From Alphaproteobacteria bacterium (GTDB taxonomy: Bacteria; Pseudomonadota; Alphaproteobacteria; JAQWUY01), in the NCBI GenBank assembly GCA_965232465.1, contig OZ246977.1, forward strand, positions 2,502,135 through 2,566,134: a stretch of 64,000 bases of DNA, written 5' to 3'. The position numbers and the translations under genes are program-made. Shown piece by piece: positions 2,108 through 20,113 of the stretch. How positions within the stretch are numbered: position 1 is the stretch's first letter; each line of letters starts with the position of its first letter. Below the pieces are notes generated by a model. That model did no database searches. It saw nothing but the letters and a program-made list of their open reading frames with translations, and was not told where the DNA came from.

Positions 2108-2722
2108 ATGATTATTTTATCACATCGGGGATATTGGCACCACCCCCACGAAAAAAACACTGCGGCGGCTTTCCATCGGTCGTTTTCCATGGGATTTGGC
2201 ACTGAAATGGATGTGCGGGATGGCAATAACACATTGGTTATAGCACACGACATACCCACAGGCAATGAAATATCACTTGCCCAAATGTTGGATATATATT
2301 GTCAATACGATATGTCTCTGCCGCTTGCCATTAACATTAAAGCGGACGGATTGCAACCGATGCTGTGCGATCTGTTACACCGATACAAAATCCGCAATTA
2401 TTTTTTATTCGACATGTCGGTGCCCGATCATATTGTGTCATTAAAGCACAAACTCACCTGTTTTACCCGTCACAGCGAATATGAAAACTGCCCTTTATAT
2501 GACCCATCACACGGTGTGTGGATGGATACTTTCACAGACGATTGGATCCATGTGCACAGCGTGAAAAAACACTTGCAAAACAATAAAAAAGTTTGTATTG
2601 TATCCCCAGAACTGCACAGACGCAAGCACCTTGACACATGGCATACATATGCCGATTTACCCCGTCAGGTGATGCTGTGTACAGATTACCCCGAACGGGC
2701 AAAGGACTTTTTTAATGGTTGA
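2108..2722 (+). CDS. Glycerophosphodiester phosphodiesterase (GDPD) family protein.
   Basis: N-terminal ILSHRGY...EKNTAAAF...G...EMDVRDGNNTLVIAHD resembles the GDPD signature (HRG...ENTLxAF...ExDV...DG...V.HD). Confidence 0.55.
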   Translation: MIILSHRGYWHHPHEKNTAAAFHRSFSMGFGTEMDVRDGNNTLVIAHDIPTGNEISLAQMLDIYCQYDMSLPLAINIKADGLQPMLCDLLHRYKIRNYFLFDMSVPDHIVSLKHKLTCFTRHSEYENCPLYDPSHGVWMDTFTDDWIHVHSVKKHLQNNKKVCIVSPELHRRKHLDTWHTYADLPRQVMLCTDYPERAKDFFNG

Positions 2723-3341
2723 TATTAAGGCTATTATTTTTGATATGGATGGGGTATTGGTGGATGCCCGGGATTGGCATTATGAAGCCCTGAACAAAGC
2801 CCTGATGTTATTTGGGGCGGAAATATCCCGTCAAGACCACTTGACGACCTATGATGGATTGCCCACCAAAGATAAATTAAAAATGCTTAGCAAAGCCACC
2901 GGATTTCCAACCGGATTACACGATTTTATCAACGAAATGAAACAAAAATATACCCTGCAAGTTATCAACGAAAAAGCCAACCCTACTTTTGAACACGAAT
3001 ATGCCCTGTCCCGATTGTATGCACAGGGGTATAAATTAGCGGTTGCTAGCAACTCAATTTATAATACTATTGATATTTTAATGGAAAAATGTGCCCTGCA
3101 ACCATACTTAGAATTTTTCTTGTCCAACGAAGATGTAAAAATGGGCAAACCCAACCCAGAAATTTATACCAAAGCCATACATAAACTGGGTTTAAGCCCA
3201 CAACAATGTGTTATCATAGAAGACAATGTCAACGGTATCAAAGCCGCCACCGCCGCCGGGGGACATGTGATGCAGGTTGCCAATCCGTCACAAGTTACAT
3301 ACGATGCCATTATGGCTTTTATCAAAGGCATAAAGGGGTAA
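2715..3341 (+). CDS. HAD-superfamily hydrolase (subfamily IA, beta-phosphoglucomutase/phosphatase-like).
   Basis: Motif I IIFDMDGVLVD at the N-terminus. A C-terminal motif IV-like segment IIEDNVNGIKAATAAG. Overlaps the upstream gene by 8 bp, suggesting an operon. Confidence 0.7.
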   Translation: MVDIKAIIFDMDGVLVDARDWHYEALNKALMLFGAEISRQDHLTTYDGLPTKDKLKMLSKATGFPTGLHDFINEMKQKYTLQVINEKANPTFEHEYALSRLYAQGYKLAVASNSIYNTIDILMEKCALQPYLEFFLSNEDVKMGKPNPEIYTKAIHKLGLSPQQCVIIEDNVNGIKAATAAGGHVMQVANPSQVTYDAIMAFIKGIKG

Positions 3342-3345
3342 TACT

Positions 3346-4419
3346 GTGTTAAATATCTTATTACCGCTCAGCAAAATAAACACCGTGCATAATGGGCATC
3401 AAGACATACCGATTATATCCTTACGCATCAAGGGAAAAACTTTACTCGAATGGGCATTAGAACCCTTTTTAAAACTGCCTAATACGCATATTTGTGCCAT
3501 ACTTGGCAACGATATGCACACCCCATCGATTGCCCAAAACTTGCCGGACACCGTATCGATTTTACACACCCAAGGGGATACACGGGGTGCCACCTGTACC
3601 TGTTTATATGCCCACGATATATTAAATGCAGGATTGCCATTATTGGTGTCGTCTCTTGACCATTTTATATCCTTAGATGTACATGCCATGACAACACATT
3701 TACAGGCACAACAGGTCGATGCAAGCAGTGTCATTTTCCCCTCAGATGGCAACCCCATATATTCATATGCGGAAATCCGCAATGGCAAAATTACCCGTGC
3801 CTTAGAAAAACAAAGTATCACCAATACCGCCATGGCGGGTGTATATTATTTTAGCACCACAAACACATTTTTTGACCACGCAAAAAACCTTATTCGCAAA
3901 CAAACCACCCAATATCAGGACGGATATTTTATATCCGGCGTTTTAAACGAAATGGTATTGTCCGGATTGGATGTGGTGCCATATGAACAGCCCGATTTAT
4001 CATATTTTAAGGTATATGACATACCCAGCTACAACACATTATGTGATTTTATGCAGTCGGATGGGCATATGGAAAATACTATGGATACTGTCCATATACA
4101 TAAATTACGGGACTTTGTCAGGGGTTGGATAGTGGGGGACTTCAGCCCATCGTTGTATAAAACCCAAGATTTTGAATGTGCCATACAACGGTTTACCAAA
4201 GGACAAAAAGAAGCTGTACATACCCATAAAATTGCCACAGAAATCACTGTCATAATCTCAGGACGGGCGGAGATGTGCGGTAAACAGGTGGTCGCAGGCG
4301 ATATAATTGTTGTCAAACCCTATGAATACACGGGTTTTGAGGCACTGGAGGACACTGTAACAGCCGTTGTCAAAATCCCCGGGGCAAAAAACGACAAATA
4401 TAGTAAAGACACCTTATGA
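3346..4419 (+). CDS. Two-domain protein: a degenerate nucleotidyltransferase-like N-domain (G-rich loop lost) fused to a C-terminal cupin resembling FdtA/WxcM-type sugar 3,4-ketoisomerases.
   Basis: The N-terminal ILLPLSK...IPIISLRIKGKTLLEWALEP parallels the adjacent paralog IVIPMAGLGSRF...PKPLIPIHKKPMI but lacks GxGxR. The C-terminal AVHTHKIATEITVIISGRAEM...GDIIVVKP is cupin-like with a His-x-His pair. GTG start assumed. Confidence 0.4.
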   Translation: MLNILLPLSKINTVHNGHQDIPIISLRIKGKTLLEWALEPFLKLPNTHICAILGNDMHTPSIAQNLPDTVSILHTQGDTRGATCTCLYAHDILNAGLPLLVSSLDHFISLDVHAMTTHLQAQQVDASSVIFPSDGNPIYSYAEIRNGKITRALEKQSITNTAMAGVYYFSTTNTFFDHAKNLIRKQTTQYQDGYFISGVLNEMVLSGLDVVPYEQPDLSYFKVYDIPSYNTLCDFMQSDGHMENTMDTVHIHKLRDFVRGWIVGDFSPSLYKTQDFECAIQRFTKGQKEAVHTHKIATEITVIISGRAEMCGKQVVAGDIIVVKPYEYTGFEALEDTVTAVVKIPGAKNDKYSKDTL

Positions 4420-5165
4420 TACACATTGTTATTCCCATGGCTGGCTTAGGGTCACGGTTTGCCCAAGCCGGATACATAGACCCCAAGCCCTTAATTCCCA
4501 TACACAAAAAGCCCATGATACAGGTAGTGATTGACAATTTAACCCCCGATTGTGCGCATCATTTTATCTTTATTGTCCAAAAAACCCATATGGAATGGTA
4601 TAATTTGGATACCTGTTTACAACAATATGCACCCGATTGTACCATTATACCCATAGATTACACCACCGAAGGGGCGGCATGTAGCGTATTATTGGCACAG
4701 CATATTATCAACACCGACACCCCGTTAATGATTGCCAACTGTGACCAGTTCGTCGATGTAAATATTACCCAATACCTAGAGTCTATGGGCGATTTTGATG
4801 GGTATATTATGACATTCAAAGACAATGCGGATAAATGGTCTTATATTCAATACGATGACGAGGGCAATATTATCGGTGTGGTTGAAAAACAAGTGGTGTC
4901 CCATGACGCCACCGTGGGCATATATAATTTTGCCAAAGGGGCGGATTTTGTTACATACGCCCATACCATGATACAACAAAACTTACGGGTTAAGGGGGAA
5001 TTTTATGTGGCACCTGTGTATACCATGATGGTTGCCGATGGCAAAAAACTGGGCATATATGACATGAGCCAACACAACCAACACATGTACGGATTGGGCG
5101 TTCCCGAAGATGTACAATATTTTTTAAAACATCCCATATCCGATTTTTTAAAACGGGATATATAA
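4416..5165 (+). CDS. Sugar-phosphate/phosphocholine nucleotidyltransferase (LicC/MobA-like NTP-transferase fold).
   Basis: IVIPMAGLGSRF...PKPLIPIHKKPMIQ matches the N-terminal NTP-transferase signature. ATGA overlap with the upstream gene suggests translational coupling. Confidence 0.6.
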   Translation: MIHIVIPMAGLGSRFAQAGYIDPKPLIPIHKKPMIQVVIDNLTPDCAHHFIFIVQKTHMEWYNLDTCLQQYAPDCTIIPIDYTTEGAACSVLLAQHIINTDTPLMIANCDQFVDVNITQYLESMGDFDGYIMTFKDNADKWSYIQYDDEGNIIGVVEKQVVSHDATVGIYNFAKGADFVTYAHTMIQQNLRVKGEFYVAPVYTMMVADGKKLGIYDMSQHNQHMYGLGVPEDVQYFLKHPISDFLKRDI

Positions 5166-5417
5166 TACAAAATTGTATATTGATAAACGGGGTGTCAATG
5201 ACTTGATACAGGTTACATAAATGACACTTTACTTTTTTAATGAACGATGTATAATGGAATATATGAGGACAATGTGATATGAATAAAAAAGAAATTTTAA
5301 TTTGGATAGTATTAGAGTAATCGGTAGCGGTTTAGGTGCGGTTGTCGTTACTGTAACAAGTAAACATAGCGACTGCTTATACCATGCAGTACTTAGGATT
5401 GGATAAGGATTAAAACT

Positions 5418-5513: not shown

Positions 5514-5524
5514 ACTCTTATCCA

Positions 5525-6529
5525 TTGAAAAAGTTAAATAAGCAAGTGATACACCACAGCGACATTACTTTTGTTATGCAGGGACCTGTTGTTCCTGAAA
5601 CCAGCAAGGCTATGCAACAGATACAACAGATTATGCCCGAATCAAAAATCATTTTATCCACATGGCACAATCAAGATGTATCAGACATTGCGTGTGATGG
5701 TATCATTGAAAATGATGACCCCGGGACACTCGATGGCGGACCAGAGCCATATTTTAATAATGTCAATCGGATGATTGTTTCCACCCGTAATGGATTGCAA
5801 CGGGTAACAACAAAATACGCTGTTCGCATCCGTACCGACAGCACCATTAAAAACGATACTTTTATACCATTGTATGAAAAAATGATGGCATCAGGACATG
5901 CACAACCCAGTTGGTTTAAACACCCTATTATGGTAATTTGTTATAGGGAATTTTTGGTAACCCCTTATCTTGTTGGCGACCCGTTTCATTTTGGCTTAAC
6001 ATCCGATGTATTAAACTTGTGGGACATTCCATTGGCAACGCAACAACAGGCAGAATATTTTAAAAATAAAAAATGTAAAAACAGTTTGTTAAGACCATGG
6101 TATTTATCCAGTAAAAGATTTTATCCACAATATTTTGGACCCGAACAATATTTAATGTGTATGTTTTTACAAAAATGTCACATTGACATAGATTATACAC
6201 ATCATCAAGATAATATTACAATTTATAAAACCATACGCAGTATAAAGGGTATCATACATAATTTTTTTCTTGTGGCACAAGATGATATTCCACTGCATTG
6301 TTATAAATACCCTGAAACAGACCCAGAACCTATGGTGCAATTTTGGTACAAAATGCACACACTGCCCCCCCCCCAATGGATATTTTTTGTATATAGCCTA
6401 AGACGCAAAAAACGCAGAACTTATGTAAGACGCACATATGGCGAAACAGCATATAAAATATACAAAAATACAGGGAAAATAATATTCATTCTGCTGTTAT
6501 TATCTGTTGTATTTTTTTATATCATTTGA
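5525..6529 (+). CDS. WavE-like LPS-biosynthesis family protein (tentative). Contains a C10 tract near the 3' end.
   Basis: N-terminal ITFVMQGP...ILSTW resembles my recollection of the WavE family (Pfam PF07507). TTG start per the ORF track. Sits in the glycan locus. Sequence after the poly-C is low-complexity (RRKKRRTYVRRTY...), compatible with an alternative frame after slippage. Confidence 0.35.
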   Translation: MKKLNKQVIHHSDITFVMQGPVVPETSKAMQQIQQIMPESKIILSTWHNQDVSDIACDGIIENDDPGTLDGGPEPYFNNVNRMIVSTRNGLQRVTTKYAVRIRTDSTIKNDTFIPLYEKMMASGHAQPSWFKHPIMVICYREFLVTPYLVGDPFHFGLTSDVLNLWDIPLATQQQAEYFKNKKCKNSLLRPWYLSSKRFYPQYFGPEQYLMCMFLQKCHIDIDYTHHQDNITIYKTIRSIKGIIHNFFLVAQDDIPLHCYKYPETDPEPMVQFWYKMHTLPPPQWIFFVYSLRRKKRRTYVRRTYGETAYKIYKNTGKIIFILLLLSVVFFYII

Positions 6530-6697: not shown

Positions 6698-8662
6698 TTA
6701 ATAAAATTGTAAAAAACGGCGTTTTAACGATTTTAAATTCCAATATTTTTTATACAACCGTAAGCATATATACAACACAATTTTTCCCATAATACCTTTA
6801 ACCCAAAACGGTTTTTTAAAATCCTGTGTTTCCATAAGATTGCGTAGTTGCACCCCGATGTTTTCCATACTTTGCCGGCGGATATATGGGCTGTCGACAA
6901 AGGGATTGTCCAATATATACGATTGGTATAATTCTGGATCCTTATCCACTTGTGCAATATATGCCATAGCCTGTTCAAAACTATCAAAATCTTTTACATT
7001 AATAAACGCCTCAGCCTTGATATAATTATAAATGTTATCGCCCCCCCAATATATGGGAATTGCCCCCGCCCGCAACGCCATAAATGCTTTTTCAGAAAAA
7101 CTGTAATAGTCCTTATTATTTTCAATACACAAAGAAAACCGATACTGTTCAATGATATGATGCATGTCCATATCAGCAGTAATAGTCCCTTTTTCGGTTT
7201 TTAAGGTGCTGATATTACGGTACTGTCGCCCCCATGAATGCACTGTATTATAAAATTGTTTTTGCATTTTTTTATACAATCGGTTGCGCACGCCCGCATA
7301 TTTATTGCCATACATAAATATGCAAAAATGGCGTTTTTGGTGCGGGTATCGGGACACAAAATCAGGATTTTTTCCATCGAGAAAATTAAATAAGTCATCG
7401 CCCACAAATAACAAATGCCATAATATATCATGGTGATCGAAATTGCTTATCATAATATCGGTAAAGGGCAAACGGGGGATAAAATGCTCGCCCCCCACCA
7501 ATACCCTAATACAATCATATTTGTACATATCATTGCTTGTAATATCATAAAACGCAATATCAGGATTGTCATTTACCCACTGTATAGTATACAATTTTCC
7601 CAACATCAACAGGGCAACATCTGTATGGCCATGATGACTTAACACCCGCAATGTCTTACGCTTGCAAGCCATTGGGCAAGCCATTGGGATAGCATACTGT
7701 GTAAAAATATGGTGTAATATACTATCTTGATAACAGTTGGGATAATATGTCAATTTATGTATATTATTTTTATGGGTGATTTTATGCCACAAATCGTCTG
7801 AGTATGGGGTGTGTATATGTGCGGACAATAAAGTGGGGTAAATATCGTCCATAATTTCACAATTATCATACCCATCAATAATCTCATGAAATAAAATTTG
7901 AAATAAAAAATAGTGCTTAAAATTTTTCTCATTTTTCCAATAATTACACAGGATTTGTACCAATTTTTCCATAACCTCATTATGCGGTTTGGCAACAATA
8001 AAACTGTTTAGCAATCGTACTTTAAAATCCTTATCCCATGAAAAATACTCTGGATTAAACTTGTGCCAATATTTATAATCCGCAGGCTTTTCCCCCCGTT
8101 GAAACATAAAAAAATCTTTGTCAAGCAACGTATTTGGAATTTTATCCGATAAATAAAGGGTCGCATCACACCATACCCCCCCATATGCGGACAACAAACA
8201 CACCCGCAATATATCAGAAAAAAAAGTATAGGTAAAATGACGATTATTATACAGTTTATCATATATAAAATCCGGCAGGTCAATATAATCGGCGATGGTA
8301 TCGTTGGTTAAAACGATGACTTCGTACTCCCCCCTGTGTTGGTGTACACTTGCCATACATGCCCGTACAATATGAGGGGTGTTTTTATCAATCCCCTGCC
8401 CCCAATATTGCCAAATGATTTTTTTGTGTTGTAAATCTTGTTGCACAGGTATATCAAAGTGTTGTATATCCTTTTGAATATATTTTCGCTGTAAATATCG
8501 TGCCACCTTTTGCTGATCGGGTATAATTTTTGCCCACCGATATTTTTGTTTTATCTTTTTGCGTACACGCTTAATGGGCATCATTTTATACAGTATAAAC
8601 AACAGGTATATATACATTACCAGCCCCCAAATCTTTTGCGTTTTGACATGACTGTTTTCCAA
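6698..8662 (-). CDS. Bifunctional glycosyltransferase: N-terminal GT32-like (Gly_transf_sug, DXD) domain plus C-terminal GT10 alpha-1,3/4-fucosyltransferase-like domain.
   Basis: The N-half FSDILRVCLLSAYGGVWCDATLYL matches the GT32/OCH1-like motif (sDllRyxxLyxyGGiYxDxD). The C-half CIENNKDYYSFSEKAFMALRAGAIPIYWG matches the GT10 motif (FENS...YVTEK...A...PIYWG). The true start may be Met16 at 8617, which would remove the 46-bp overlap with the upstream gene. Confidence 0.65.
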   Translation of the reverse strand: MENSHVKTQKIWGLVMYIYLLFILYKMMPIKRVRKKIKQKYRWAKIIPDQQKVARYLQRKYIQKDIQHFDIPVQQDLQHKKIIWQYWGQGIDKNTPHIVRACMASVHQHRGEYEVIVLTNDTIADYIDLPDFIYDKLYNNRHFTYTFFSDILRVCLLSAYGGVWCDATLYLSDKIPNTLLDKDFFMFQRGEKPADYKYWHKFNPEYFSWDKDFKVRLLNSFIVAKPHNEVMEKLVQILCNYWKNEKNFKHYFLFQILFHEIIDGYDNCEIMDDIYPTLLSAHIHTPYSDDLWHKITHKNNIHKLTYYPNCYQDSILHHIFTQYAIPMACPMACKRKTLRVLSHHGHTDVALLMLGKLYTIQWVNDNPDIAFYDITSNDMYKYDCIRVLVGGEHFIPRLPFTDIMISNFDHHDILWHLLFVGDDLFNFLDGKNPDFVSRYPHQKRHFCIFMYGNKYAGVRNRLYKKMQKQFYNTVHSWGRQYRNISTLKTEKGTITADMDMHHIIEQYRFSLCIENNKDYYSFSEKAFMALRAGAIPIYWGGDNIYNYIKAEAFINVKDFDSFEQAMAYIAQVDKDPELYQSYILDNPFVDSPYIRRQSMENIGVQLRNLMETQDFKKPFWVKGIMGKIVLYICLRLYKKYWNLKSLKRRFLQFY

Positions 8663-9636
8663 AATTTATGATACCCAAATCGTAATATTTTATGAACAAC
8701 AGGCGTACGGCACAAAGTCCTTACAAGCGGACGCTGTTTTGGAGTATAAGGGGCAATATCATTTTCTATGAACTGTTGCAGTCGCATTCTATTGCGTGCA
8801 ACTTTATCCGATACATCGGATACATATGGGTTGGCATTTCTGTATTTTTGATATAAATGCACATCCGTATCGACTTGTAACACATACGCCACTAAGTCAG
8901 CGATAGTATCAAAATCACGGGCGTCAATATACGCATCTTTATTGACAAAAGTATCAATATCTGACGGTCCCCAATAAATCGGCACACTGCCCACCTCCAA
9001 TGCTTGAATAACTTTTTCTGAAAAACTGTAGGGGCGTAGTCCATTTTCCATGGCAATGGTAAACTTATAATGCCGTAGAGTATACAATTTCTCCATTGCC
9101 CTTAAATCCAAACCCTGATCTTGGTATTTGTGTAAATCCTTTGGCATGTCCGGTATGTCATACATATCCATATTTTTCATAACCGAACCCAAGCTGTCCA
9201 CTTTTTTACGCTGATTTAAAGCCAGAAAAAAGGCATTTCTAAATTTTGTATATTGATTTCCATACATAAAATTACAAAATCTTGTCTTCGGGTATTGTAT
9301 AAAATGTTGCTTATCCAAACCCACCTTAGACAATTTATTGTGCACATCGATAAATAAAAATCCTGCCATCATTTCCAAACTATGAAAAATATTTTTTTGG
9401 GATTTTTTACCATATATAATGGCAAAATCTGCTTGCCACACATTAGGATAAAAATGTTCTGAGGCTATGAAAATATAAATTTTATCTCGGTAAAAAAAGG
9501 GTATATTGTCAAAAGGTCCAAAAAAAACAATATGTGCATCTTGATATGTGTCTGCTAATACAAAGTGTTTTTGTAACACATTGTTTAAGAAAAAATATTG
9601 TCCCTTGCGATAGTTGTATAAAAAATACCTTTTCAT
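8617..9636 (-). CDS. GT10 family alpha-1,3/4-fucosyltransferase-like glycosyltransferase.
   Basis: C-terminal FTIAMENGLRPYSFSEKVIQALEVGSVPIYWG matches the GT10 catalytic/donor-binding motif. Confidence 0.65.
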   Translation of the reverse strand: MKRYFLYNYRKGQYFFLNNVLQKHFVLADTYQDAHIVFFGPFDNIPFFYRDKIYIFIASEHFYPNVWQADFAIIYGKKSQKNIFHSLEMMAGFLFIDVHNKLSKVGLDKQHFIQYPKTRFCNFMYGNQYTKFRNAFFLALNQRKKVDSLGSVMKNMDMYDIPDMPKDLHKYQDQGLDLRAMEKLYTLRHYKFTIAMENGLRPYSFSEKVIQALEVGSVPIYWGPSDIDTFVNKDAYIDARDFDTIADLVAYVLQVDTDVHLYQKYRNANPYVSDVSDKVARNRMRLQQFIENDIAPYTPKQRPLVRTLCRTPVVHKILRFGYHKFWKTVMSKRKRFGGW

Positions 9637-9732
9637 ATGTATAATAATCCTTTATGTGCATTGACACTTGTACAATAAAACAATATACTGAATGGCACTA
9701 TAACACAGTACAAGGTAAAAAGGATATTTTTT

Positions 9733-10491
9733 ATGAAAGTGGCGGTTTGTTTATTTGGACATTTGCGAACATACAAAAAATGTTATAAGTCGATTATAAA
9801 AAATATTATTCACCCGAATAATGCCGATGTGTTTATGCATACTTGGGATACACTGGAATCAGAAACCGCCACATGGCATAATAAAAAAACCAAAAACCGC
9901 CCCATTAGCCCACAAGAACAACATACCATTCAACGCATATACACCACTCAGGGGTTCGTCTGTGAAAAACAAATACAGCCAAAAACCACACCTGTACCGG
10001 ATGATTGTCCGAACCTTAACGCAGGGGGATTTATCGCAGGTAAAAATATTTGTAAATCCATGCGTACCAGTGTGCAACTGGCCCAAGCACACAATACATA
10101 CGACATCATTATTTTGGTTCGCAATGATTTATACATTAAAAATAAACTTATTGTCGACATTACAAAAAAACATCTATTGATGTTTTGTGGCCGTCATGAA
10201 ACCGGGGATAAAAACCATTACTTAGGATACCATTGTATTGACTTATTGTTGTATACGAGCCCCGCCATGTTAAACAAATTTCTGTCTTATTTCCCAGAAG
10301 ATAAAAATGACATACAGCACTTAACAAACGGTCCCAGTTCATGGTATATATACATGGATAAGGTTATAAATAGTGTACCCGTACCAAATACGGATTTTAA
10401 TTACATACACGATTACTATATCAAGCGAAAACCCATCGGATTATACCAACAAATACGCCAAAAATACCGTGAACTTAAAGGGCGAGTATAA
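9733..10491 (+). CDS. Hypothetical protein within the glycan locus (possible uncharacterised glycosyltransferase).
   Basis: 252-aa ORF with good coding appearance, on the opposite strand to flanking GT genes. No recognisable motif. Confidence 0.35.
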   Translation: MKVAVCLFGHLRTYKKCYKSIIKNIIHPNNADVFMHTWDTLESETATWHNKKTKNRPISPQEQHTIQRIYTTQGFVCEKQIQPKTTPVPDDCPNLNAGGFIAGKNICKSMRTSVQLAQAHNTYDIIILVRNDLYIKNKLIVDITKKHLLMFCGRHETGDKNHYLGYHCIDLLLYTSPAMLNKFLSYFPEDKNDIQHLTNGPSSWYIYMDKVINSVPVPNTDFNYIHDYYIKRKPIGLYQQIRQKYRELKGRV

Positions 10492-10513
10492 ATGTAATAC
10501 CATATGGCACAAT

Positions 10514-11344
10514 TTAATGCCCATGAAAATTTTTGCTGATGTATACTGTATAAAAGTATTTTAAGGATTGTTCTGTATTTTTCCCCATAGTTTTTATATG
10601 AAATACCTTGTACATAATCCAGCCAAATATATAATATGGTGTTAAGATAATTTTTCCTACCGCCCGTAAAGTTTGTCGATACTGTTTTTTGTTGTTATTG
10701 CTAATGGTATTTTTACGCATGCTTTCTATTGCAGAATCATGCATAGTCAAAGGCGGTTGCTGAATAAGCTTTGGGGATGTAAAAACCGCATATGTATTGA
10801 CATCCAAGGGCCAATCCGCCATATGCACAATGGGGGTGTTTTGTATTCTTAACATATTTGCCATATGGATATTGATATAATATCCCCCTGTACAATACGC
10901 TTCGCCAACGGACGTATACAGACGGTACTTTTTATATAATTTTTCACCTGTATCAAAGATACTCTTTCGTACCCGAAAGTGATTAAAGATTATAAAACTG
11001 TGGGGGCTTTTTTGTAGTATTTTTCGTCGGATAATAGGGTCAAACGCATCGTCTATGATGGCATCATCTTCCAGTATGACACAATCTGTGATATTTTCAT
11101 CGACAATTTTTTGATATACCAATACATGTGACAACGCACAGCATATTTCCACATCGTGCATATCCCGTCCCACATTTTTACGGGCGGTTTTTGTGTCCAC
11201 CATATGGGTATAACATTCGGGAATACCCTGTCGTCCATCCACTGCGTCAAAAAATTCAAAATCCAACCCCAAGGCACTGAGCCTGTTACGAATAGAGTTA
11301 CGCCTGTTATGTGCATCAGACAGGCTAATGACAAAAATTTTCAC
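10514..11344 (-). CDS. GT25 family LPS/LOS glycosyltransferase (LgtB/Lic2A-like beta-1,4-galactosyltransferase family).
   Basis: The N-terminus KIFVISLSDAHNRRNSIRNRLSALGLDFEFFDAVDG is the typical GT25 start (IxVINLxxSxxRR...L...Gi.fEfFdAVdG). Confidence 0.75.
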   Translation of the reverse strand: MKIFVISLSDAHNRRNSIRNRLSALGLDFEFFDAVDGRQGIPECYTHMVDTKTARKNVGRDMHDVEICCALSHVLVYQKIVDENITDCVILEDDAIIDDAFDPIIRRKILQKSPHSFIIFNHFRVRKSIFDTGEKLYKKYRLYTSVGEAYCTGGYYINIHMANMLRIQNTPIVHMADWPLDVNTYAVFTSPKLIQQPPLTMHDSAIESMRKNTISNNNKKQYRQTLRAVGKIILTPYYIFGWIMYKVFHIKTMGKNTEQSLKYFYTVYISKNFHGH

Positions 11345-12130
11345 CTATTCGCCCTCGACTGTGGGCGACACAACCACAGAAAACGGTTTTTTCAATTTAT
11401 AACGCAGTGTATAAGACACACCGAGTCTGCCAAAAAATGATCCCGCAAAGCGTTTACGAATATGGTGTTTTCGCATGTTTTCTATTTGTGATTGGCTCAG
11501 GCTGGGGTGGGTGATAAGCCGGGGCGTAACCACTTGGGCGGGTATGGCGGTAATATCCGTAAACCAATCGGACACATAGGATATGGGGAATACTGTATGG
11601 GCAAATTGCGTAGCGGTGGGCAAATCCACATAATACCCTACCGCCCCAGCACAGTTGTTTATAACAGGGGCAATACTATACCCCCCCCATAAGGGATGTT
11701 GTTGTGATGGGATAATGCGGGCATACAGGTGGTATAACAACACAAACCCTGCCGTATGGTTTGGCAAAATATCCTGCTTAATGATGTGGACAAAATCCAT
11801 ATCACACAAAAAATCATCTTCCAAAATAATGCTGTGGGCGATATTTTCTGTTACAATCTTTTCGTATAACAACGCATGGCTTAACGCACAACACATTTCC
11901 ACATCTGATACCATGCGCCGTAAGTTCTTGTCCATAGCCGGGCGATCAATCCGCTGTATATACGCATCGGGCACCCCCTGTGTACCATCCACCGCATCAA
12001 AAAATTCAAATTCCAGCCCCAACTTTTGCATCTTTTCAAGTACCACCCGACGGCGTTTAGTGGCATCACGCAAAGATATGATATATATTTTTATATCAGG
12101 CATGGTCATATCATTTCTTGTCATCGTCAT
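11345..12130 (-). CDS. GT25 family LPS/LOS glycosyltransferase, tandem paralog. Contains a G8/C8 tract at 11691-11698.
   Basis: KIYIISLRDATKRRRVVLEKMQKLGLEFEFFDAVDG is the same GT25 N-terminal signature. Confidence 0.75.
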   Translation of the reverse strand: MTMTRNDMTMPDIKIYIISLRDATKRRRVVLEKMQKLGLEFEFFDAVDGTQGVPDAYIQRIDRPAMDKNLRRMVSDVEMCCALSHALLYEKIVTENIAHSIILEDDFLCDMDFVHIIKQDILPNHTAGFVLLYHLYARIIPSQQHPLWGGYSIAPVINNCAGAVGYYVDLPTATQFAHTVFPISYVSDWFTDITAIPAQVVTPRLITHPSLSQSQIENMRKHHIRKRFAGSFFGRLGVSYTLRYKLKKPFSVVVSPTVEGE

Positions 12131-12351
12131 ATGTACTCTGTTACTTTACATATAGGCTGTAGAGTATTTTGATTTATGTATTTTTCCATACATTATATGG
12201 TACCACATATAAATCGTTTTGTCTATTATTAAACCGTGACCAAGCCATCAAAATAGACCCTAATCACGCCGACACCTATTGACCTGCCCCCTATAAATAG
12301 GTCCAAAATTAAGTTAGTATTGATTTATCTAAATTATGAAAGGATTTTAAG

Positions 12352-12636
12352 ATGTCAAAGAATAGGAAAGCCCGCAGTATAGAACAAATTATCCATATAT
12401 TACGGGATGCAGAGATTAAGTTATCGTCAGGTATGACAGTCAGTGTTATGTGCCGTGATTTAGGTATATCGGATGCGACTTATTACAAGTGGCGCAAACA
12501 ATATGGTGGTATGGATGTTAATCATGCCAAAGATTTAAAAGCATTATTGGATGAGAATACCCGTTTAAAGAAGCTTGTTGCTGATTTGAGTTTAGACAAT
12601 CAAATCTTAAAGGAATTTAACTCGGGAAAGTGGTAG
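12352..12636 (+). CDS. IS3-family transposase OrfA (HTH and leucine-zipper).
   Basis: 94-aa product with ...[14 protein letters not shown]...[17 protein letters not shown], typical of IS3 OrfA. A GGGAAAG slippery heptamer at 12624-12630 precedes the stop. Confidence 0.8.
12624..12630 (+). promoter_or_regulatory. Putative -1 programmed ribosomal frameshift heptamer G_GGA_AAG joining IS3 orfA to orfB.
   Basis: X_XXY_YYZ pattern in the orfA frame, 4 nt before the orfA stop. orfB frame open from 12621. A G7 run follows at 12643-12649. Confidence 0.45.
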
Positions 12637-13505
12637 GTGATGGGGGGGTAAAAAGCTTTATTGGCAAAGCCAAGTCTTTTTACAATGTATCAGAACGGCG
12701 ATTATGTAGTTTATTCAGGACACATCGCTCTACGGTTCGTTATGTGAAACGAGATGTTGATGAGGAAAGCCGTTTAATATCAGATATGCACCGTCTAGCA
12801 CAAAAATACCCTAGATATGGTTATCGGCGGATATGTGCCTTATTAAAAGGTTATGGTTGGTGTGTAAACCATAAGCGGATTGAACGGCTTTGGAAACAGG
12901 AGGGATTACAAGTGCCACAGAAAATACCCAAACCCCGTAGTTCAAATGCTGGTGATGGGAGCTGTATTAAACTTCGTCCTGAGTATCAAAATCATGTATG
13001 GAGTTATGACTTTGTGCATGACAAGCTGAGAAATGGTAAAGGCATTAAAATATTAACGGTTATAGATGAACATAGCCGAGAATGCTTAACCATTGATGTG
13101 CGGCATAAACTGAACAGTACGGATGTATTGGATATTATGGGCAGGTTGTTTATCACAAAAGGTATGCCTAAGCATATCCGTTCTGACAATGGATCTGAAT
13201 TTATAGCCCATAGGCTACAAGGTTGGTTGAAGCGTATGCAGGTGGGTACAGCATACATTGATAAGGGCAGTCCATGGCAGAACGGTTATAATGAAAGTTT
13301 TAATGGTAAACTTCGGGACGAGTGCTTGAACAGGGAGATATTTGATACTTTAACTGAGGCACAAGCCATTATAGAAAACTGGCGGTATGAATACAATCAT
13401 ATCCGTCCACATAGTGCGTTAGGGTACAATCCACCAGTGCCAAAAATGCAACCCATTGTCAATGATATCCGTCATTCCGCTACGCTACATGACAAATATC
13501 ATTGA
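12630..13505 (+). CDS. IS3-family transposase OrfB (DDE integrase core), expressed by a -1 frameshift fusion with OrfA.
   Basis: [12 protein letters not shown]...[13 protein letters not shown]...[13 protein letters not shown]...[22 protein letters not shown] is a classic rve/DDE integrase signature. It is in the -1 frame relative to orfA and is open from 12621. Confidence 0.85.
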
Positions 13506-13547
13506 CAATAGAGAAAAAAAGTACTAACCTAAAAATGGACCAAATCA

Positions 13548-14173
13548 GTGGGGCTGGTCACCCCTTGGCGTGACTTACCGCCTGATTTAGGGGATTGGAG
13601 TAACACGCACCGTCGTTTTATCCGCTGGCGTGATAAGGGGATATGGGAAAAGTTGTTGGAAATTTTAGTTACAGATCCGGATTATGAATGGTTAATAATA
13701 GACGCTAGTCATTGTAAGGTGCATCCTCATGCATCTGGTGCACTAGGCGGTAATCAAGATATGAGCCGCACAAAAGGGGGCTCAACACGAAGATACATTT
13801 GGCCGTGGATGCGCATGGTATGCCGGTCAGAATACTTATTACGAACGGTACCACAGCTGATTGCACACAAGCAGGCAGATTGATTGAAGGCATCAGTGCA
13901 GAGTATTTGTTGGCAGATAAGGGATATGATAGTGAGCATATCATACACCTAGCAAAACAACAAGGTATAGAGCCTGTTATTCCCCCAAGAAAGAATCGCA
14001 AAGAACAAAGGGAGTATGATGAACACCTGTATCATTGGCGGTGCTTAGTGGAAAATGCGTTTCTACACCTAAAACGATGGCGTGGTATTGCAACAAGATA
14101 CGCTAAAAACACCACTTCATTTCTCGCCGCTGTACAAATCAGATGCATCGCATTATGGACAAAAATCTCGTGA
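13548..14173 (+). pseudogene. IS5-family (IS427-group-like) transposase remnant. It is N-terminally truncated by the IS3 insertion and split across two frames (13548-13883 and 13799-14173).
   Basis: WRDLPPDLGDWSNTHRRFIRWRDKGIWEKLLEIL and LADKGYDSE...IPPRKNRK...VENAFLHLKRWRGIATRYAK match IS5/DDE_Tnp_1 family segments. The start abuts the IS3 IRR. The first ~60 aa of a full-length protein are missing. Confidence 0.65.
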
Positions 14174-14180
14174 CTACACT

Positions 14181-14256
14181 ATCTAGCTGCCCCCTATAAA
14201 TTGATCCAAAATTAAGTTAGTATAATTTATATGTAAATTAAGAAAGGATTATAAGA
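14181..14256 (+). repeat. Degenerate second copy of the IS3 left end (IRL plus orfA ribosome-binding region).
   Basis: CTGCCCCCTATAAATTGATCCAAAATTAAGTTAGTAT...GAAAGGATTATAAGATTTG is a direct repeat of 12283-12355 (about 85% identity by eye). Confidence 0.6.
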
Positions 14257-14293
14257 TTTGGCTATTGTGGCAAAACCCCATTGCCTGCCCATG

Positions 14294-15052
14294 TTACAGC
14301 TGTTTACAATCCAAATACTGCTGCATTGTATGACATTCAAAGGTGCCATTAGCTGTTTTTAGCATAGCACCTTTAAGCGGTGGAAAGTACATGGCACGAA
14401 TAAAGCGGGCAACTGTACCATCGTCCCAATGCGGGTTAATGATACCCTCATATGGCAATTTATTCATATAGTATGTGCCTTTTGTAACCCTATTATCAAA
14501 TCGGGTATTATTTTCACAAGCCTGTATCACCTGTCCAATTTTTGCCAACCCTTGTGAAAAAATTTCATAGTACAATTGCTGGGCGTTTTTATCGGCAATC
14601 TCAATATCGCCTCGTAATAAAATATCCCCTGCATCAATCTTTTTATCCATGATATGCCAAGTGTATCCCACATATTTTTCTTGATGTATAATCGACCAAC
14701 ATGTGGAAAAACATCCTTGATAATAAGGCAACCGCCCAGGATGAAAATTGATATTTTCCTTGTGGGCATATTGCAATGCTTGTGGTGATAATATGCGATG
14801 CCACGACACACTTAAAATGTAATCGTACGAAGTCTGTGCCAAAATATCTTCGTATGCCCCTTGTTTTGGGCGTAAAACATACCCAACACCAATATATTTT
14901 AAAAATTCTACATAAGGACGGTTGGTGGGCTGATCGCTGAATGATATGCACAAAATATCTTGTAACGACACGCCATTTGCCAACAGCTGCCACAAACTGA
15001 ATATAGCCTGCGACCCTTGTGACAACAAAACAAATTTATAGTGTGTATTCAT
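14294..15052 (-). CDS. Formyltransferase-domain protein (sugar N-formyltransferase / Fmt-like).
   Basis: NFHPGRLPYYQG corresponds to the formyl_trans_N active-site region (N.HxSLLPxxRG). Located within the glycan locus. Confidence 0.6.
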   Translation of the reverse strand: MNTHYKFVLLSQGSQAIFSLWQLLANGVSLQDILCISFSDQPTNRPYVEFLKYIGVGYVLRPKQGAYEDILAQTSYDYILSVSWHRILSPQALQYAHKENINFHPGRLPYYQGCFSTCWSIIHQEKYVGYTWHIMDKKIDAGDILLRGDIEIADKNAQQLYYEIFSQGLAKIGQVIQACENNTRFDNRVTKGTYYMNKLPYEGIINPHWDDGTVARFIRAMYFPPLKGAMLKTANGTFECHTMQQYLDCKQL

Positions 15053-15339
15053 GTGGTAAAAACGATGTCGGTGATTATATAGTCAATTAAATTTAATTTG
15101 ATTGACAAAATGCGGTTGCAACCGCTTGCCACGCAGTGGCATTGTGGTGCAGAGCGGGGTGAGTGCGTGTGGTATTTTGTCATGCGAAGCATGGGTAAAT
15201 CCACATTAAACGCACGAGGGGCGTTAGCCCCTTGGACTCACGATATAACCAACGAAATAAAATGTGCAGTATAATCATGGTGAATCATTTTATACCGAAT
15301 TGACTATATCCGAATGTTGTATATGAAAATCAAATGCCA

Positions 15340-16395
15340 TTATGTCCATCTGTGAATTAAAAATTTACCAAAATGTATGCCTTTTTTCTCAATATAGGTA
15401 TATGTCCCCCAACATACTAAGGTGGTGGGTATTAAGGTTAACACCATTCCCACCAACCCATACGCCAAACCGCCATATACTTTTAATGCACTGGCAAGGG
15501 CGGCAACAAATGTCGGATGAATTAAATATATACTAAAACTTAATATGCCCATTAAACGCATAAACTTATTATCAAACAAAGGGGTTTTTGTATAGGCAAC
15601 AGACATCATAAAAATCCCATATAACACCGCCATAATGGCAAAATGAAATACACCTAGTCCCGCCTGGTCATCGACCCATAGGGTCAAGATAAATATCAGG
15701 GGCATTGCCCAATAATTATGCAATAGCTGTATACCCCGTTGTTGCATTATCAAATGATGTACATATCCCCCCACAACAAACATGACCGCTTGCCCAAAAA
15801 TAAAATATATGTGAAACGGATAGCGCAATACAGACACCATCTGATCCCACAATATGCCCACACCTGCACACACCACAACCAACCACCACTTGTGCATATA
15901 GGGTACCAACAACGGGAACAGCAAATAAAAAGTAAATTCTAAGTCAATGGTTGTGCCGGCGGGGGCGTAACTGCCCATACTATATGGGGCAAAATCGGTT
16001 AAAAATAACAATGATAATATGAACCGTACCATATCAAACGGATCATTTCCCGATACCACAGCCACCAATATAGCAACATACATCATGGGTGCCAAACGGA
16101 AAAATCGGCGGATAAGAAAATCCCGAATTTTATGGGGGGATCGCTTATAATAATGCCACATATAACACATGGTAAAGCCACTTATCACATAAAATAACTG
16201 CACCCCCCATGTACCATTGCCAAAAATCAATCCCATATGGTGCTCAGATACCAACGATATGCCTTGTTGGTTACCCAAATGCACCTTTACCCACACATGA
16301 ATCCCCACAACCAGCAAAATCGCCCATCCCCGCAAGCCATCAAGCCACCCTAAGCGTACAGCCGGGGATTGCAAAGATGTCGTGTTATGGGGCAT
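15340..16395 (-). CDS. Acyltransferase family 3 (OafA/NolL-like O-acetyltransferase) integral membrane protein.
   Basis: N-terminus RLGWLDGLRGWAILLVVGIHV is a typical acyltransferase-3 start. The rest is multi-pass hydrophobic. Confidence 0.7.
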   Translation of the reverse strand: MPHNTTSLQSPAVRLGWLDGLRGWAILLVVGIHVWVKVHLGNQQGISLVSEHHMGLIFGNGTWGVQLFYVISGFTMCYMWHYYKRSPHKIRDFLIRRFFRLAPMMYVAILVAVVSGNDPFDMVRFILSLLFLTDFAPYSMGSYAPAGTTIDLEFTFYLLFPLLVPYMHKWWLVVVCAGVGILWDQMVSVLRYPFHIYFIFGQAVMFVVGGYVHHLIMQQRGIQLLHNYWAMPLIFILTLWVDDQAGLGVFHFAIMAVLYGIFMMSVAYTKTPLFDNKFMRLMGILSFSIYLIHPTFVAALASALKVYGGLAYGLVGMVLTLIPTTLVCWGTYTYIEKKGIHFGKFLIHRWT

Positions 16396-16756
16396 CCTTC
16401 AACGCCCCCATAATCTGTGTTGTTTCCGATTGTGGTTCTGTGCCGGGAATACCGCCAAATGTGATCCATCTTGGCTGCTCACATCGGTGATAAATGCTGT
16501 TTTTGTCATTATAGTGATATATCCTTAAAAATTCATGGCATAAAAAAACCCCTGTGAATATAACAAAACCGCATCATATTTACAACAACAAAAAACTAAC
16601 GAAGCAATGGGGGATTTTTGGGTATTTCATCGCCATTATATAAACACAAACTGCCCAGTATCCAATACATGTAAAGAAAATATACCGCTGTTTTGTCGTT
16701 CCATACAGGGTTTTAAAACGGGGGGTATAGCTCATATATGTCGTTTTCACATCCCC

Positions 16757-17677
16757 CTAAAATGGCACTGGTATTGTGTGCCAATCAGGGGGTAACAATT
16801 CGTCTTCGGGGGTGCCGTTTTTTAACCATGGGGTTGGGGATATGACCCTTTTATTGGGGTGTTGGTTGATATACGCCCCCCACCACGAATAGGTGCTGTT
16901 GGTAATAATATTATGCGTACATTTGCCCATCAGGATTATATCTTCAAAATCAGGTGCTTTGCCTTTGCTGTCCACATAAACAGGATTGGGCAGAAAATCC
17001 AAGTTATTACGACACCAATCTTGATCCATAGAAAACACAAACGGGCGGGCATTGGGGTATTTTTCGCTTACCTGTTGCCATGCCTGTTGAAAATATTGTG
17101 CCGATGGGATGTTATAAAAGGTATCCTCAAAATCATCCCGCCGTACATGTAAAGACACGGCATTTTTTTCAGATTCAATACAGCGGAGTATACCTTTGCT
17201 AAATGGACTGAGCGGGTGTTTAGGGGTCACAGTTTCCAACAAGATAGGTCTTACCGCATCCGCATACACATGATTTTGAAAAAAACCACAGGCAATCCGT
17301 CCTAAGAAGACCTCTGTATCCGATGTGTGGTAAAACAATTCATAATACTTTTTTCTTTTAAATTTGGTTAACATATACAGCAATTTACCCCACCTGCCCT
17401 GTAAGTAATTATCGGAAAATAGGGTTTCTGTATCAATGTTAAAGGCTTTTTCTAATTCTTGGTGTATGCAGAATGCTTTTTCACCTATGAGAATACGATC
17501 GTGATAGGTATGCACCACTTTTACCCCATGTTTTTGTGCCAAATACACCCCAAATGCATAAGCAAACAACTGATTCCCCCACCCCCCAGCAATGCGAATA
17601 ATCACAGTATCCTTGCCAGTGCATAGTATCTTAAAAAAATCCCGTACTGTACGGTTTGCCACCATATGGTTTGCCAT
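16757..17677 (-). CDS. GT11 family alpha-1,2-fucosyltransferase.
   Basis: IIRIAGGWGNQLFAYAFG matches GT11 motif I (GGLGNQMFQYA). SLHVRRDDFE matches the HVRRGDY motif. Confidence 0.75.
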   Translation of the reverse strand: MANHMVANRTVRDFFKILCTGKDTVIIRIAGGWGNQLFAYAFGVYLAQKHGVKVVHTYHDRILIGEKAFCIHQELEKAFNIDTETLFSDNYLQGRWGKLLYMLTKFKRKKYYELFYHTSDTEVFLGRIACGFFQNHVYADAVRPILLETVTPKHPLSPFSKGILRCIESEKNAVSLHVRRDDFEDTFYNIPSAQYFQQAWQQVSEKYPNARPFVFSMDQDWCRNNLDFLPNPVYVDSKGKAPDFEDIILMGKCTHNIITNSTYSWWGAYINQHPNKRVISPTPWLKNGTPEDELLPPDWHTIPVPF

Positions 17678-17683
17678 AGCGTA

Positions 17684-18514: not shown

Positions 18515-18517
18515 GCC

Positions 18518-19933: not shown

Positions 19934-20113
19934 AAAAGTACATATATCATATTCATATATGATAAACAACTTAAATATTTATCATAAAAACTATGTTGCT
20001 CAAAAGGGAATATGGTGGGTACAGAAAATGTGCACCCTGCCTGTATAAGGTGGGAAGTGTTGTTTTATATGCTTTTCTGGTTATAAAACCATGGTTATAA
20101 AACTACTTGGCGT

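What the first reader, a model, noticed from the sequence alone, without database searches (positions are those of the whole stretch)
6365..6374. C10 tract near the 3' end of the WavE-like LPS gene
Poly-C and poly-G tracts in LPS/LOS biosynthesis genes are the established mechanism of phase variation in Helicobacter fut genes, Neisseria lgt genes and Haemophilus. Here the C10 tract (encoding PPP) is followed by a low-complexity basic tail that looks like out-of-frame translation. This suggests the annotated frame may be the OFF or alternative state.
Basis: partly seen in the sequence, partly recalled or inferred. Interest (0 to 1): 0.5.

Follow-up and report, generated by a model that had tools for sequence, protein, structure and literature searches.

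The report
In-frame poly-C run in glycosyltransferase gene
A run of ten C's sits in frame near the end of a sugar-adding enzyme gene of an uncultured alphaproteobacterium; the gene is currently intact, and the run is a plausible but unproven slippage switch that would cut off the enzyme's membrane-binding tail.

Summary
The C10 run is real and lies exactly at 6365-6374. It encodes Pro281-283 of a 334-aa WavE-family protein (Pfam E=2e-38).

The basic tail after the run is not out-of-frame translation.
- It aligns with the tail of the closest homologue (z=8 against shuffles). The other two frames show no similarity and stop after 6-8 codons.
- Basic, acid-poor tails occur across the family (79% of 109 members).
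- An AlphaFold model (pLDDT 92) has a GT-A-like fold. The PPP is the linker before two C-terminal helices, one basic and one strongly hydrophobic.

So C10 is the ON frame. A change of one C would give an enzyme of about 290 aa without its anchor.

Phase variation is plausible but unshown.
- Both available assemblies carry C10.
- No length-variant protein exists in a 15-billion-protein collection.
- The genome prefers CCC and GGG codons and is generally rich in G/C runs. Given the protein sequences, runs of 10 or more are only marginally enriched (P≈0.1).

In favour, the same organism has a G10 in a signal-peptide region, a C13, and a G14 in a promoter-like spacer. The gene lies in a fucosyltransferase-rich glycan cluster.

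It is a new candidate of a known kind, of modest interest.

The parts
6365..6374 (+). C10 homopolymer. It reads CCC CCC CCC plus the first base of CAA, giving Pro281-283 (numbering from the TTG start at 5525).
   Evidence: The run is identical in the second assembly, L001.
5525..6529 (+). WavE-family gene, probably a GT-A-fold glycosyltransferase. The ORF starts at TTG 5525. Alternative starts are GTG 5546 and the ATG 5576 that gene callers used (317 aa, P0001). The conserved DITFV motif lies upstream of 5576, so the true start is probably 5525 or 5546.
5564..6298 (+). Catalytic WavE domain, residues 14-258. It matches Pfam profile positions 1-252 of 305.
   Evidence: Conserved motifs QG, STW, DPG, NxNR, RxD and D..FG.
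6368..6439 (+). First tail helix, basic and amphipathic (PPQWIFFVYSLRRKKRRTYVRRTY). It covers model residues 265-288 in 317-aa numbering.
   Evidence: DSSP on the model. Homology to the P0002 tail.
6443..6523 (+). Second tail helix. It ends in the strongly hydrophobic segment IIFILLLLSVVFFYII, the predicted membrane anchor.
   Evidence: Model helix 290-316. Mean Kyte-Doolittle hydropathy over 15 residues is 3.19, against 3.10 in P0002.
6394..6396 (+). TAG stop reached with C8, C11 or C14. The product ends ...PPP(P)MDIFCI and is 289-291 aa.
6399..6401 (+). TAA stop reached with C9 or C12. The product ends ...PPP(P)NGYFLYIA and is 291-292 aa.
2715..5165 (+). Upstream genes of a four-gene module that ends in the WavE gene: a HAD hydrolase (2715-3341), a 357-aa nucleotidyltransferase-like protein (3346-4419) and a nucleotidyltransferase (4416-5165). 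They presumably make the activated sugar donor.
   Evidence: Pfam. The same four-gene order occurs in relative L045. The 249-aa protein matches PDB 4evw, an NDP-sugar pyrophosphorylase, at E=6e-19.
6698..19969 (-). Rest of the glycan cluster: a Caps_synth+GT10 fusion, a GT10 gene, two GT25 genes, an IS3-type integrase (on the + strand), a formyltransferase, an acyltransferase-3, a GT11 gene and ManC.

Best explanation
**What it is.** The C10 run is a genuine in-frame homopolymer. It encodes a Pro-Pro-Pro linker between two parts of a WavE-family glycosyltransferase. The first part is a GT-A-like catalytic domain. The second is a two-helix C-terminal tail (a basic amphipathic helix followed by a hydrophobic helix), which I infer holds the enzyme at the inner membrane where its lipid-linked acceptor sits.

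**Current state.** The sequenced state, C10, is the intact ON frame.

**Proposed mechanism.** A G/C run of 10 is prone to slipped-strand mispairing during replication. Gain or loss of one C would bring a stop 6-8 codons later and produce an enzyme of about 290 aa without its tail. The likely result is loss or weakening of one sugar addition to a fucosylated LPS/LOS-type surface glycan. A second slip would restore the frame.

**Shown here.**
- The run and its frame.
- The consequences of each run length.
- The authenticity of the tail.
- The fold.
- The gene context.
- Other long runs in the same organism.

**Inferred, not shown.**
- That slippage actually occurs at a useful rate.
- That the tail-less enzyme is inactive in vivo.
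- That the run is maintained by selection.
For: - **Frame consequences.** C7, C10 and C13 give the full 333-335 aa protein. All other lengths stop within 6-8 codons.
- **The tail is authentic.** It aligns with P0002 at z=8.1; the other frames do not. In the family, K+R is 20% in tails against 12% in the body, and D+E is 6% against 12%. 79% of 109 members have a net basic tail.
- **Context.** The gene lies in a cluster with GT10, GT11 and GT25 genes and ManC.
- **Other long runs in this organism.**
  - A G10 lies in the signal-peptide region of an SH3 protein. It reads G11 in the other assembly, giving 161-aa and 139-aa products.
  - A G14 lies between perfect TTGACA and TATATT hexamers, upstream of a small ORF with a signal-peptide-like N-terminus.
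  - A C13 is also present.
- **Lineage specificity.** Homologues have NKI, NKM or KTK where this protein has PPP. Relatives and 41 other species lack such runs.
Against: - **No length variation observed.** Both assemblies have C10. No C7-C9 or C11-C13 product exists in the 15-billion-protein collection. No other strain was found in JGI metagenomes.
- **Weak enrichment.** Given the PPP and the genome's codon bias, runs of 10 or more are not significantly enriched (P=0.10).
- **Runs are tolerated generally.** Runs of 8 occur in housekeeping genes, with two in pyrF.
- **The only observed length difference is unreliable.** The G10/G11 difference comes from a roughly 4x-coverage assembly. That assembly also has three indels in short A/T runs within 6 kb, so it may be an error.
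- **The OFF state may not be null.** The run lies 84% of the way through the gene, so the OFF product keeps the whole catalytic domain and may stay active.
Confidence: 0.5

Rival explanations
1. The run is a neutral by-product of composition. This lineage prefers CCC and GGG codons and accumulates G/C runs everywhere. A PPP linker simply happens to be written with three CCC codons before a C-initial Gln codon. The run is tolerated and is not a selected switch. Occasional frameshift mutants are just deleterious or neutral variants.
For: - CCC is 37% of Pro codons and GGG is 38.5% of Gly codons.
- Runs of 6 or more and 7 or more occur at twice the level expected from synonymous shuffles, throughout the window.
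- Runs of 10 or more: 2 observed against 0.54 expected, P=0.10.
- 8-nt runs occur in pyrF and other housekeeping genes.
- The sister genome also has G9 and C8 runs in 22 kb.
- C10 is identical in the two assemblies.
Against: - In the 74 kb seen, all four runs of 10 or more lie outside housekeeping genes. Three of them sit in a surface-glycan gene, a signal-peptide region and a promoter-like spacer.
- PPP replaces non-proline residues of the homologues at a linker, so the run is derived.
- Extrapolating the fall in run counts from lengths 6-8 (52, 16 and 5) gives about 0.7 runs of 10 or more by my estimate. Three are observed.
Confidence: 0.38
2. The sequenced frame is the OFF or alternative state, the basic tail is out-of-frame junk, and the true C-terminus lies in another frame.
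For: Only the look of the tail supports this: it is of low complexity and rich in K and R.
Against: - The in-frame tail is homologous to the P0002 tail (score 77, z=8.1).
- The other frames have z of 0.9 or less and stop after 6-8 codons.
- Basic tails are a family trait.
- The tail is modelled as two confident helices with pLDDT 80-89.
Confidence: 0.02
3. The run length is a sequencing or assembly artefact. Long-read consensus sequences often miscount homopolymers, so the real length is not 10.
For: - The contig names suggest long-read metagenome assemblies.
- The second assembly has only about 4x coverage and shows indel noise.
Against: - Two assemblies agree on C10.
- Only lengths of 7, 10 or 13 give the intact protein with its homologous tail.
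Confidence: 0.05
4. The gene is recoded rather than switched by mutation. Transcriptional slippage on the run would yield a mixture of long and short proteins from one allele. Alternatively, a -1 ribosomal frameshift at the T_TTT_TTG heptamer, which becomes in-frame in a C9 allele, would do so, as proposed for H. pylori futC (from my own knowledge).
For: In the C9 frame, the heptamer T TTT TTG (6383-6389) lies 9 nt after the run. A -1 shift there would restore the native tail (sequence, frames).
Against: - There is no stimulatory structure downstream (fold z=-1.5; the best fold pairs the slippery site itself).
- T6 runs are common here, with 67 in the window.
Confidence: 0.03

Closest known systems
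Neisseria lgtA/lgtC/lgtD/lgtG poly-G phase-variable LOS glycosyltransferase genes
   Same: - An in-frame G/C homopolymer lies in a gene for a glycosyltransferase that builds a surface glycolipid step by step.
- A change of one base shifts the frame. In strain MC58, lgtA has 14 G, and an engineered 7 G allele is frameshifted with no LgtA activity (PMC3765393).
- From my own knowledge, LgtC has a basic/aromatic C-terminal segment that binds the membrane.
   Different: - From my own knowledge, the Neisseria runs lie early in the genes and give null alleles. Here the run is at 84% of the ORF and removes only the tail.
- The enzyme family differs (WavE/PF07507).
- The host is an uncultured alphaproteobacterium.
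- No length variation has been observed.
Helicobacter pylori futA/futB/futC poly-C tracts (Lewis-antigen fucosyltransferases)
   Same: - A poly-C run lies in a gene of an LPS glycan cluster. The cluster here includes GT10 (two genes), GT11 and GT25 genes, which is the Lewis-antigen enzyme set.
- From my own knowledge, the H. pylori enzymes also carry a basic/hydrophobic C-terminal membrane tail.
   Different: - The run here is not in the GT10 or GT11 genes. Their longest G/C runs are 7 nt.
- The run-bearing protein has a GT-A-like fold, not the fold of GT10 or GT11 enzymes.
- No supported translational frameshift cassette is present.
Campylobacter jejuni poly-G contingency genes in LOS, capsule and flagellar-glycosylation loci
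   Same: Several G/C homopolymers of about 8-13 nt are scattered through one small genome, and they are concentrated in surface-glycan genes (the C. jejuni side is from my own knowledge).
   Different: - Here G/C runs are also frequent in housekeeping genes.
- The mismatch-repair status of this organism is unknown.
- No population data exist.
WavE proteins of Vibrio wav (LPS core) gene clusters, Pfam PF07507
   Same: The family membership is clear. As in Vibrio, a nucleotidyltransferase gene lies next to it; the 249-aa neighbour matches PDB 4evw.
   Different: - Identity to named members is only about 30%.
- Neither the 41 genome loci nor the three metagenome relatives that encode homologues have a G/C run of 9 or more.
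- I found no biochemical characterisation of the family.

Membership tests
WavE family (Pfam PF07507) | Match to the family HMM above the gathering score. | tested here: met
   132.7 bits against a cut-off of 27, E=2.1e-38, residues 14-258. There are 1618 relatives at E of 1e-3 or better.
WavE family (Pfam PF07507) | Family-conserved motifs are present: QG, STW, DPG, NxNR, RxD and D..FG. | tested here: met
   The invariant and near-invariant columns of alignments A1 and A3 are all present in the window protein.
WavE family (Pfam PF07507) | A role in LPS core or surface-glycan synthesis. | tested here: inconclusive
   Only gene context was available: the glycan cluster with GT10, GT11 and GT25 genes and ManC, and the conserved NDP-sugar module. 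There is no biochemistry.
GT-A fold glycosyltransferases | A single Rossmann-like nucleotide-sugar-binding domain of the GT-A type. | tested here: met
GT-A fold glycosyltransferases | A DxD-type metal- and nucleotide-binding motif. | tested here: inconclusive
   RxD (R103/D105) and D152 are invariant. Their equivalence to a DxD motif was not checked on the structure.
Contingency locus (phase variation by a simple sequence repeat) | A hypermutable repeat lies inside the ORF or its promoter. | tested here: met
   The C10 is in frame at codons 281-283.
Contingency locus (phase variation by a simple sequence repeat) | A change in repeat number changes the product. | tested here: met
   In silico, a change of one or two C's gives products of 289-292 aa that lack the tail.
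Contingency locus (phase variation by a simple sequence repeat) | Repeat length varies within or between populations. | tested here: not met
   Both assemblies have C10. No variant product is on record. No further strains were found. Power is very low, with only two assemblies.
Contingency locus (phase variation by a simple sequence repeat) | The phenotype switches reversibly at high frequency. | not testable with these tools
   This needs cultures or read-level data.
Contingency locus (phase variation by a simple sequence repeat) | The repeat is over-represented relative to the genome background. | tested here: inconclusive
   P=0.10 under synonymous-codon shuffling. It is strongly over-represented against base composition and against other species.
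H. pylori-type phase-variable fucosyltransferase (GT10/GT11) | The run-bearing gene is a GT10 or GT11 fucosyltransferase. | tested here: not met
   The gene is WavE/PF07507. The GT10 and GT11 genes are its neighbours and carry no run of 8 or more.

The most novel reading that the evidence does not exclude
An uncultured alphaproteobacterium, perhaps host-associated given its ankyrin-repeat proteins and its Lewis-antigen-type glycosyltransferase set, has independently evolved a dense set of poly-G/C contingency loci like those of Helicobacter and Campylobacter. In about 74 kb there are four runs of 10 or more: one in a promoter-like spacer, one in a signal-peptide region, one intergenic, and this one. 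The WavE run would then act as a localisation switch rather than a null switch. It would toggle the membrane anchor of an otherwise intact glycosyltransferase.
Probability: 0.2. Interest if true: 0.55.

Novelty: new member of a known kind. Interest (0 to 1): 0.3.

Why it matters
If real, this would extend homopolymer-driven phase variation of surface glycans to a deep, uncultured alphaproteobacterial lineage. It would also give an example in which the switch removes a membrane-anchoring tail rather than the catalytic domain.

In practice it warns annotators of two things. This gene's odd basic tail is genuine. Gene calls in this genome are sensitive to homopolymer length.

As it stands, it is a candidate without any evidence of variation.

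Tried and rejected
1. **Out-of-frame tail hypothesis.** I translated all three frames after the run and compared them with homologue C-termini. It is rejected.
2. **Other strains or alleles.**
   - The species is absent from the GTDB representative genomes.
   - There is no close relative in JGI metagenomes.
   - There are no C7-C13 variant products.
   - The cluster of the exact protein has a single member.
3. **G10/G11 difference as proof of slippage.** This is weakened. The second assembly also has indels in short A/T runs.
4. **Frameshift cassette.** The slippery T_TTT_TTG heptamer has no downstream structure.
5. **Promoter and terminator scan around the gene.** It found nothing beyond chance.
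6. **Rfam and tRNA scans of the window.** Both were empty.
7. **Literature on WavE function.** The searches returned nothing useful, because the word 'wave' swamps them.
8. **Look-up of the 161-aa SH3 product for flanking DNA.** It is not on record.
9. **PDB sequence search for the 357-aa neighbour.** There was no hit.

Full report
**1. Observation.** The sequence at 6365-6374 is ten C's, flanked by ...cacactg and aatgg.... It lies in the + strand ORF 5525-6529, which has 334 codons from a TTG start. Gene callers used the ATG at 5576, giving the 317-aa product P0001. The frame is CTG CCC CCC CCC CAA, so the run encodes Pro281-283 plus the first base of Gln284. The protein is a clear member of Pfam WavE (PF07507, 132.7 bits, residues 14-258).

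**2. Frame logic.** I rebuilt the gene with 7 to 14 C's. C7, C10 and C13 give the full protein of 333-335 aa. C8, C11 and C14 end in ...PMDIFCI, with the stop at 6394-6396. C9 and C12 end in ...NGYFLYIA, with the stop at 6399-6401. A slip of one base therefore removes the last 51 residues and adds 6-8 new ones.

**3. The tail is authentic.** Three results show this.
- *Homology.* The closest homologue is P0002, at 48% identity, from a Tara metagenome contig. It aligns through the run position and along the tail: QWIFFVYSLRRKKRRTYVRRTYGETAYKIYK...LLLLSVVFFYII against QWQFFKFKLIRRGFVYCFREKYGEKAYKFFK...LFLLSILMIFVLLTLI. The tail-only local score is 77, z=8.1 against composition-preserving shuffles. 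The two other frames contain several stops and score at z of 0.9 or less against five homologue tails.
- *Family trait.* Across 109 single-domain family members, the last 55 residues have K+R of 20% against 12% in the body, and D+E of 6% against 12%. 79% are net basic. The window protein has exactly the family mean for K+R.
- *Structure.* An AlphaFold2 model built on a 109-sequence alignment has mean pLDDT 92. It places the PPP between helix 253-261 and two long helices, 265-288 and 290-316 in 317-aa numbering, with pLDDT 80-89. The last 16 residues are strongly hydrophobic (Kyte-Doolittle 3.19, against 3.10 in P0002).

The sequenced frame is therefore the ON state.

The gene is the last of a four-gene module: a HAD hydrolase, a 357-aa nucleotidyltransferase-like protein, a nucleotidyltransferase, and WavE. 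The same order is kept in a relative with a 1.84-Mb genome (L045). The 249-aa member matches PDB 4evw, an NDP-sugar pyrophosphorylase.

Downstream lie a Caps_synth+GT10 fusion, a GT10 gene, two GT25 genes, a GT11 gene, an acyltransferase, a formyltransferase and ManC. From established knowledge, GT10, GT11 and GT25 together make up the enzyme set for fucosylated, Lewis-antigen-like LPS or LOS.

My inference is that this is a peripheral or tail-anchored inner-membrane glycosyltransferase that adds one sugar to a surface glycolipid.

**5. Organism.**
- Dxs and GlnD place it in the Alphaproteobacteria. The best named Dxs hits are 'MAG: Alphaproteobacteria bacterium' at 64% identity, and GlnD best fits model NF003467.
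- From the exact protein matches, I infer that the source is a 2.63-Mb contig held by NCBI and ENA.
- A sister genome of 2.97 Mb has Dxs at 82% identity.
- The species was not found in the GTDB representative genomes.
- Ankyrin-repeat proteins and IS elements hint at a host-associated lifestyle. That is inference only.

**6. Is the run more than chance?**
- Against base composition, yes. I estimate about 0.02 G/C runs of 10 or more in 64 kb at 41% GC, and three are observed.
- This genome, however, prefers CCC (37% of Pro codons) and GGG (38.5% of Gly codons).
- It is also generally rich in G/C runs. Runs of 6 or more number 59 against 30.9 expected under synonymous-codon shuffling. Runs of 7 or more number 18 against 9.4.
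- Under that null, runs of 10 or more are 2 against 0.54 expected, P=0.10.
- Runs of 8 occur in housekeeping genes, including two in pyrF.
- Extrapolating the fall in run counts from lengths 6-8 (52, 16 and 5) gives about 0.7 runs of 10 or more by my estimate. Three are observed, with none of length 9.
- Other organisms lack such runs. The relatives that carry WavE homologues (GC 31-36%) have no run of 8 or more. All 676 kb of homologue loci hold one run of 8 and none longer.
- Homologues have NKI, NKM or KTK where this protein has PPP, with no length change. The run is therefore a derived feature of this lineage.

**7. Evidence for or against actual variation.** A second, independent assembly exists (ENA ERZ26168041, contigs at about 4x coverage). 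Over 12.5 kb it is identical to the window except that the G10 at 1618-1627 reads G11. The WavE run reads C10 in both.

The G10 lies in the signal-peptide region of an SH3-domain protein. G10 gives a 161-aa product. G11 leaves only a 139-aa product, from an internal TTG start, without the N-terminal hydrophobic segment. Both products are on record.

The same low-coverage assembly also differs from the window by three one-base indels in short A/T runs within 6 kb, and these break ORFs. The G10/G11 difference may therefore be assembly noise.

No C7-C9 or C11-C13 product of the WavE gene exists in the 15-billion-protein collection. No related strain was found in JGI metagenomes. Variation at this run is therefore unobserved, although the power to see it is very low.

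**8. Supporting context.**
- About 3 kb beyond the right end of the window, in the second assembly, a G14 lies between perfect TTGACA and TATATT hexamers, giving a 20-nt spacer. This is upstream of a small ORF with a signal-peptide-like N-terminus (L048 6992-7005). From established knowledge, this is the classical promoter-spacer arrangement of phase-variable genes.
- With the G10, the C10 and the C13 at 35916-35928, that makes four runs of 10 or more in about 74 kb. None is in a housekeeping gene.
- This raises the prior that the organism uses, or at least suffers, homopolymer switching.

**9. Mechanism and verdict.** Best explanation (confidence 0.5): this is a candidate slipped-strand switch, currently ON, whose OFF states delete the membrane-association tail of a GT-A-like glycosyltransferase.

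Main rival (0.38): the run is a neutral by-product of the lineage's codon and run bias.

Three other readings are unlikely.
- An assembly artefact, because two assemblies agree and only C10 yields the homologous tail.
- Recoding through a T_TTT_TTG heptamer in the C9 frame, because there is no stimulatory structure.

The finding is a new candidate member of a well-known kind, the homopolymer contingency loci in LPS/LOS genes. Two features are atypical. The run is near the 3' end, so it spares the catalytic domain. The host is an uncultured alphaproteobacterium. Interest is modest until read-level data exist.

Noticed in passing
window 1618-1627 (and 1630-1636): A G10 followed by TT and a G7 lies in the N-terminal hydrophobic, glycine-rich region of an SH3-domain protein (ORF 1549-2034). 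The second assembly (L001) has G11, which puts the ATG start out of frame and leaves a 139-aa form without the N-terminus. This is either real phase variation or a low-coverage assembly error.
   Followed up: partly
L048 6992-7005 (about 3 kb beyond the right end of the window): A G14 lies between perfect TTGACA and TATATT hexamers, giving a 20-nt spacer. It is upstream of a 96-aa ORF with a signal-peptide-like N-terminus and of a GmrSD_C fragment. This is the classical layout of a promoter-spacer switch.
   Followed up: partly
window 35904-35928: G7-aacca-C13 forms a hairpin. On the - strand it is followed by TTTTATTTT, which looks like a terminator. It lies upstream of a perfect sigma-70-type promoter (TTGACA at 35834-35829, a 17-nt spacer, TATATT at 35811-35806) for the ankyrin-repeat gene. 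This is the longest run in the window.
   Followed up: partly
window about 35615-35625 (- strand): The 1316-aa ankyrin-repeat ORF (31725-35675) is separated from a plausible start by a 2-nt (AT) frameshift inside the first repeat (...ANGAD | VNARNKDG...). That start has an RBS and an ATG at 35767 and is followed by a signal-peptide-like N-terminus. This is a pseudogene, an assembly error or recoding.
   Followed up: no
whole window: The codon preference is unusual for a 41% GC genome: GGG is 38.5% of Gly codons and CCC is 37% of Pro codons. G/C runs of 6 or more occur at twice the level expected from synonymous-codon shuffles. The sister genome (L047) shows the same tendency, but more distant relatives do not.
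   Followed up: partly
window 11681-11688: There is a G8 (on the - strand) at codon 148 of a GT25 glycosyltransferase gene (11345-12130). It is currently in frame. With 7 or 9 G's a stop follows within 2-7 codons. It is a second, shorter candidate switch in the same cluster.
   Followed up: partly
window 63563-63570 and 63636-63643: Two 8-nt G/C runs lie inside pyrF (OMP decarboxylase). This shows that 8-nt runs are tolerated in housekeeping genes of this organism.
   Followed up: partly
window 6698-19969: The cluster holds a glycosyltransferase set of the Lewis-antigen type: a Caps_synth+GT10 fusion of 654 aa, a GT10 gene, two GT25 genes, a GT11 gene and ManC. It is interrupted by an IS3-type integrase gene (12630-13505). 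This may indicate host glycan mimicry in an alphaproteobacterium.
   Followed up: no
window 2715-6529; L045 7556-10978: The four-gene module (HAD hydrolase, 357-aa nucleotidyltransferase-like protein, nucleotidyltransferase, WavE) is conserved between this organism and a distant relative. This suggests a dedicated NDP-sugar donor pathway for the WavE enzyme.
   Followed up: partly
one search hit list (P0154-P0162 and others): Many WavE-family proteins are 600-1300 aa long, with two or three matched stretches to the query, suggesting tandem WavE domains. This architecture looks like a multi-domain polysaccharide polymerase.
   Followed up: no
window 5525-5576: The public gene call starts at ATG 5576, but the family-conserved DITFV motif lies upstream of it. 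The true start is probably TTG 5525 or GTG 5546.
   Followed up: partly
window 5418-5513: A 31-aa, very hydrophobic small ORF (MGTISVFLLLGAGWIIGAVSFAMLLYKIKND) lies just upstream of the WavE gene. It is also called as a gene in the second assembly.
   Followed up: no
L048 versus window 57931-64000; L048 2263-3077: The roughly 4x ENA assembly carries one-base indels in short A/T runs that split ORFs, including two hypothetical genes. BacA is also split into 142-aa and 141-aa pieces. This is a caution for any comparison of run lengths that uses this assembly.
   Followed up: yes
window 6383-6389: The heptamer T_TTT_TTG would be in frame in a C9 allele, and a -1 ribosomal shift there would restore the native tail. 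No downstream stimulatory structure was found, so it is probably coincidental.
   Followed up: yes
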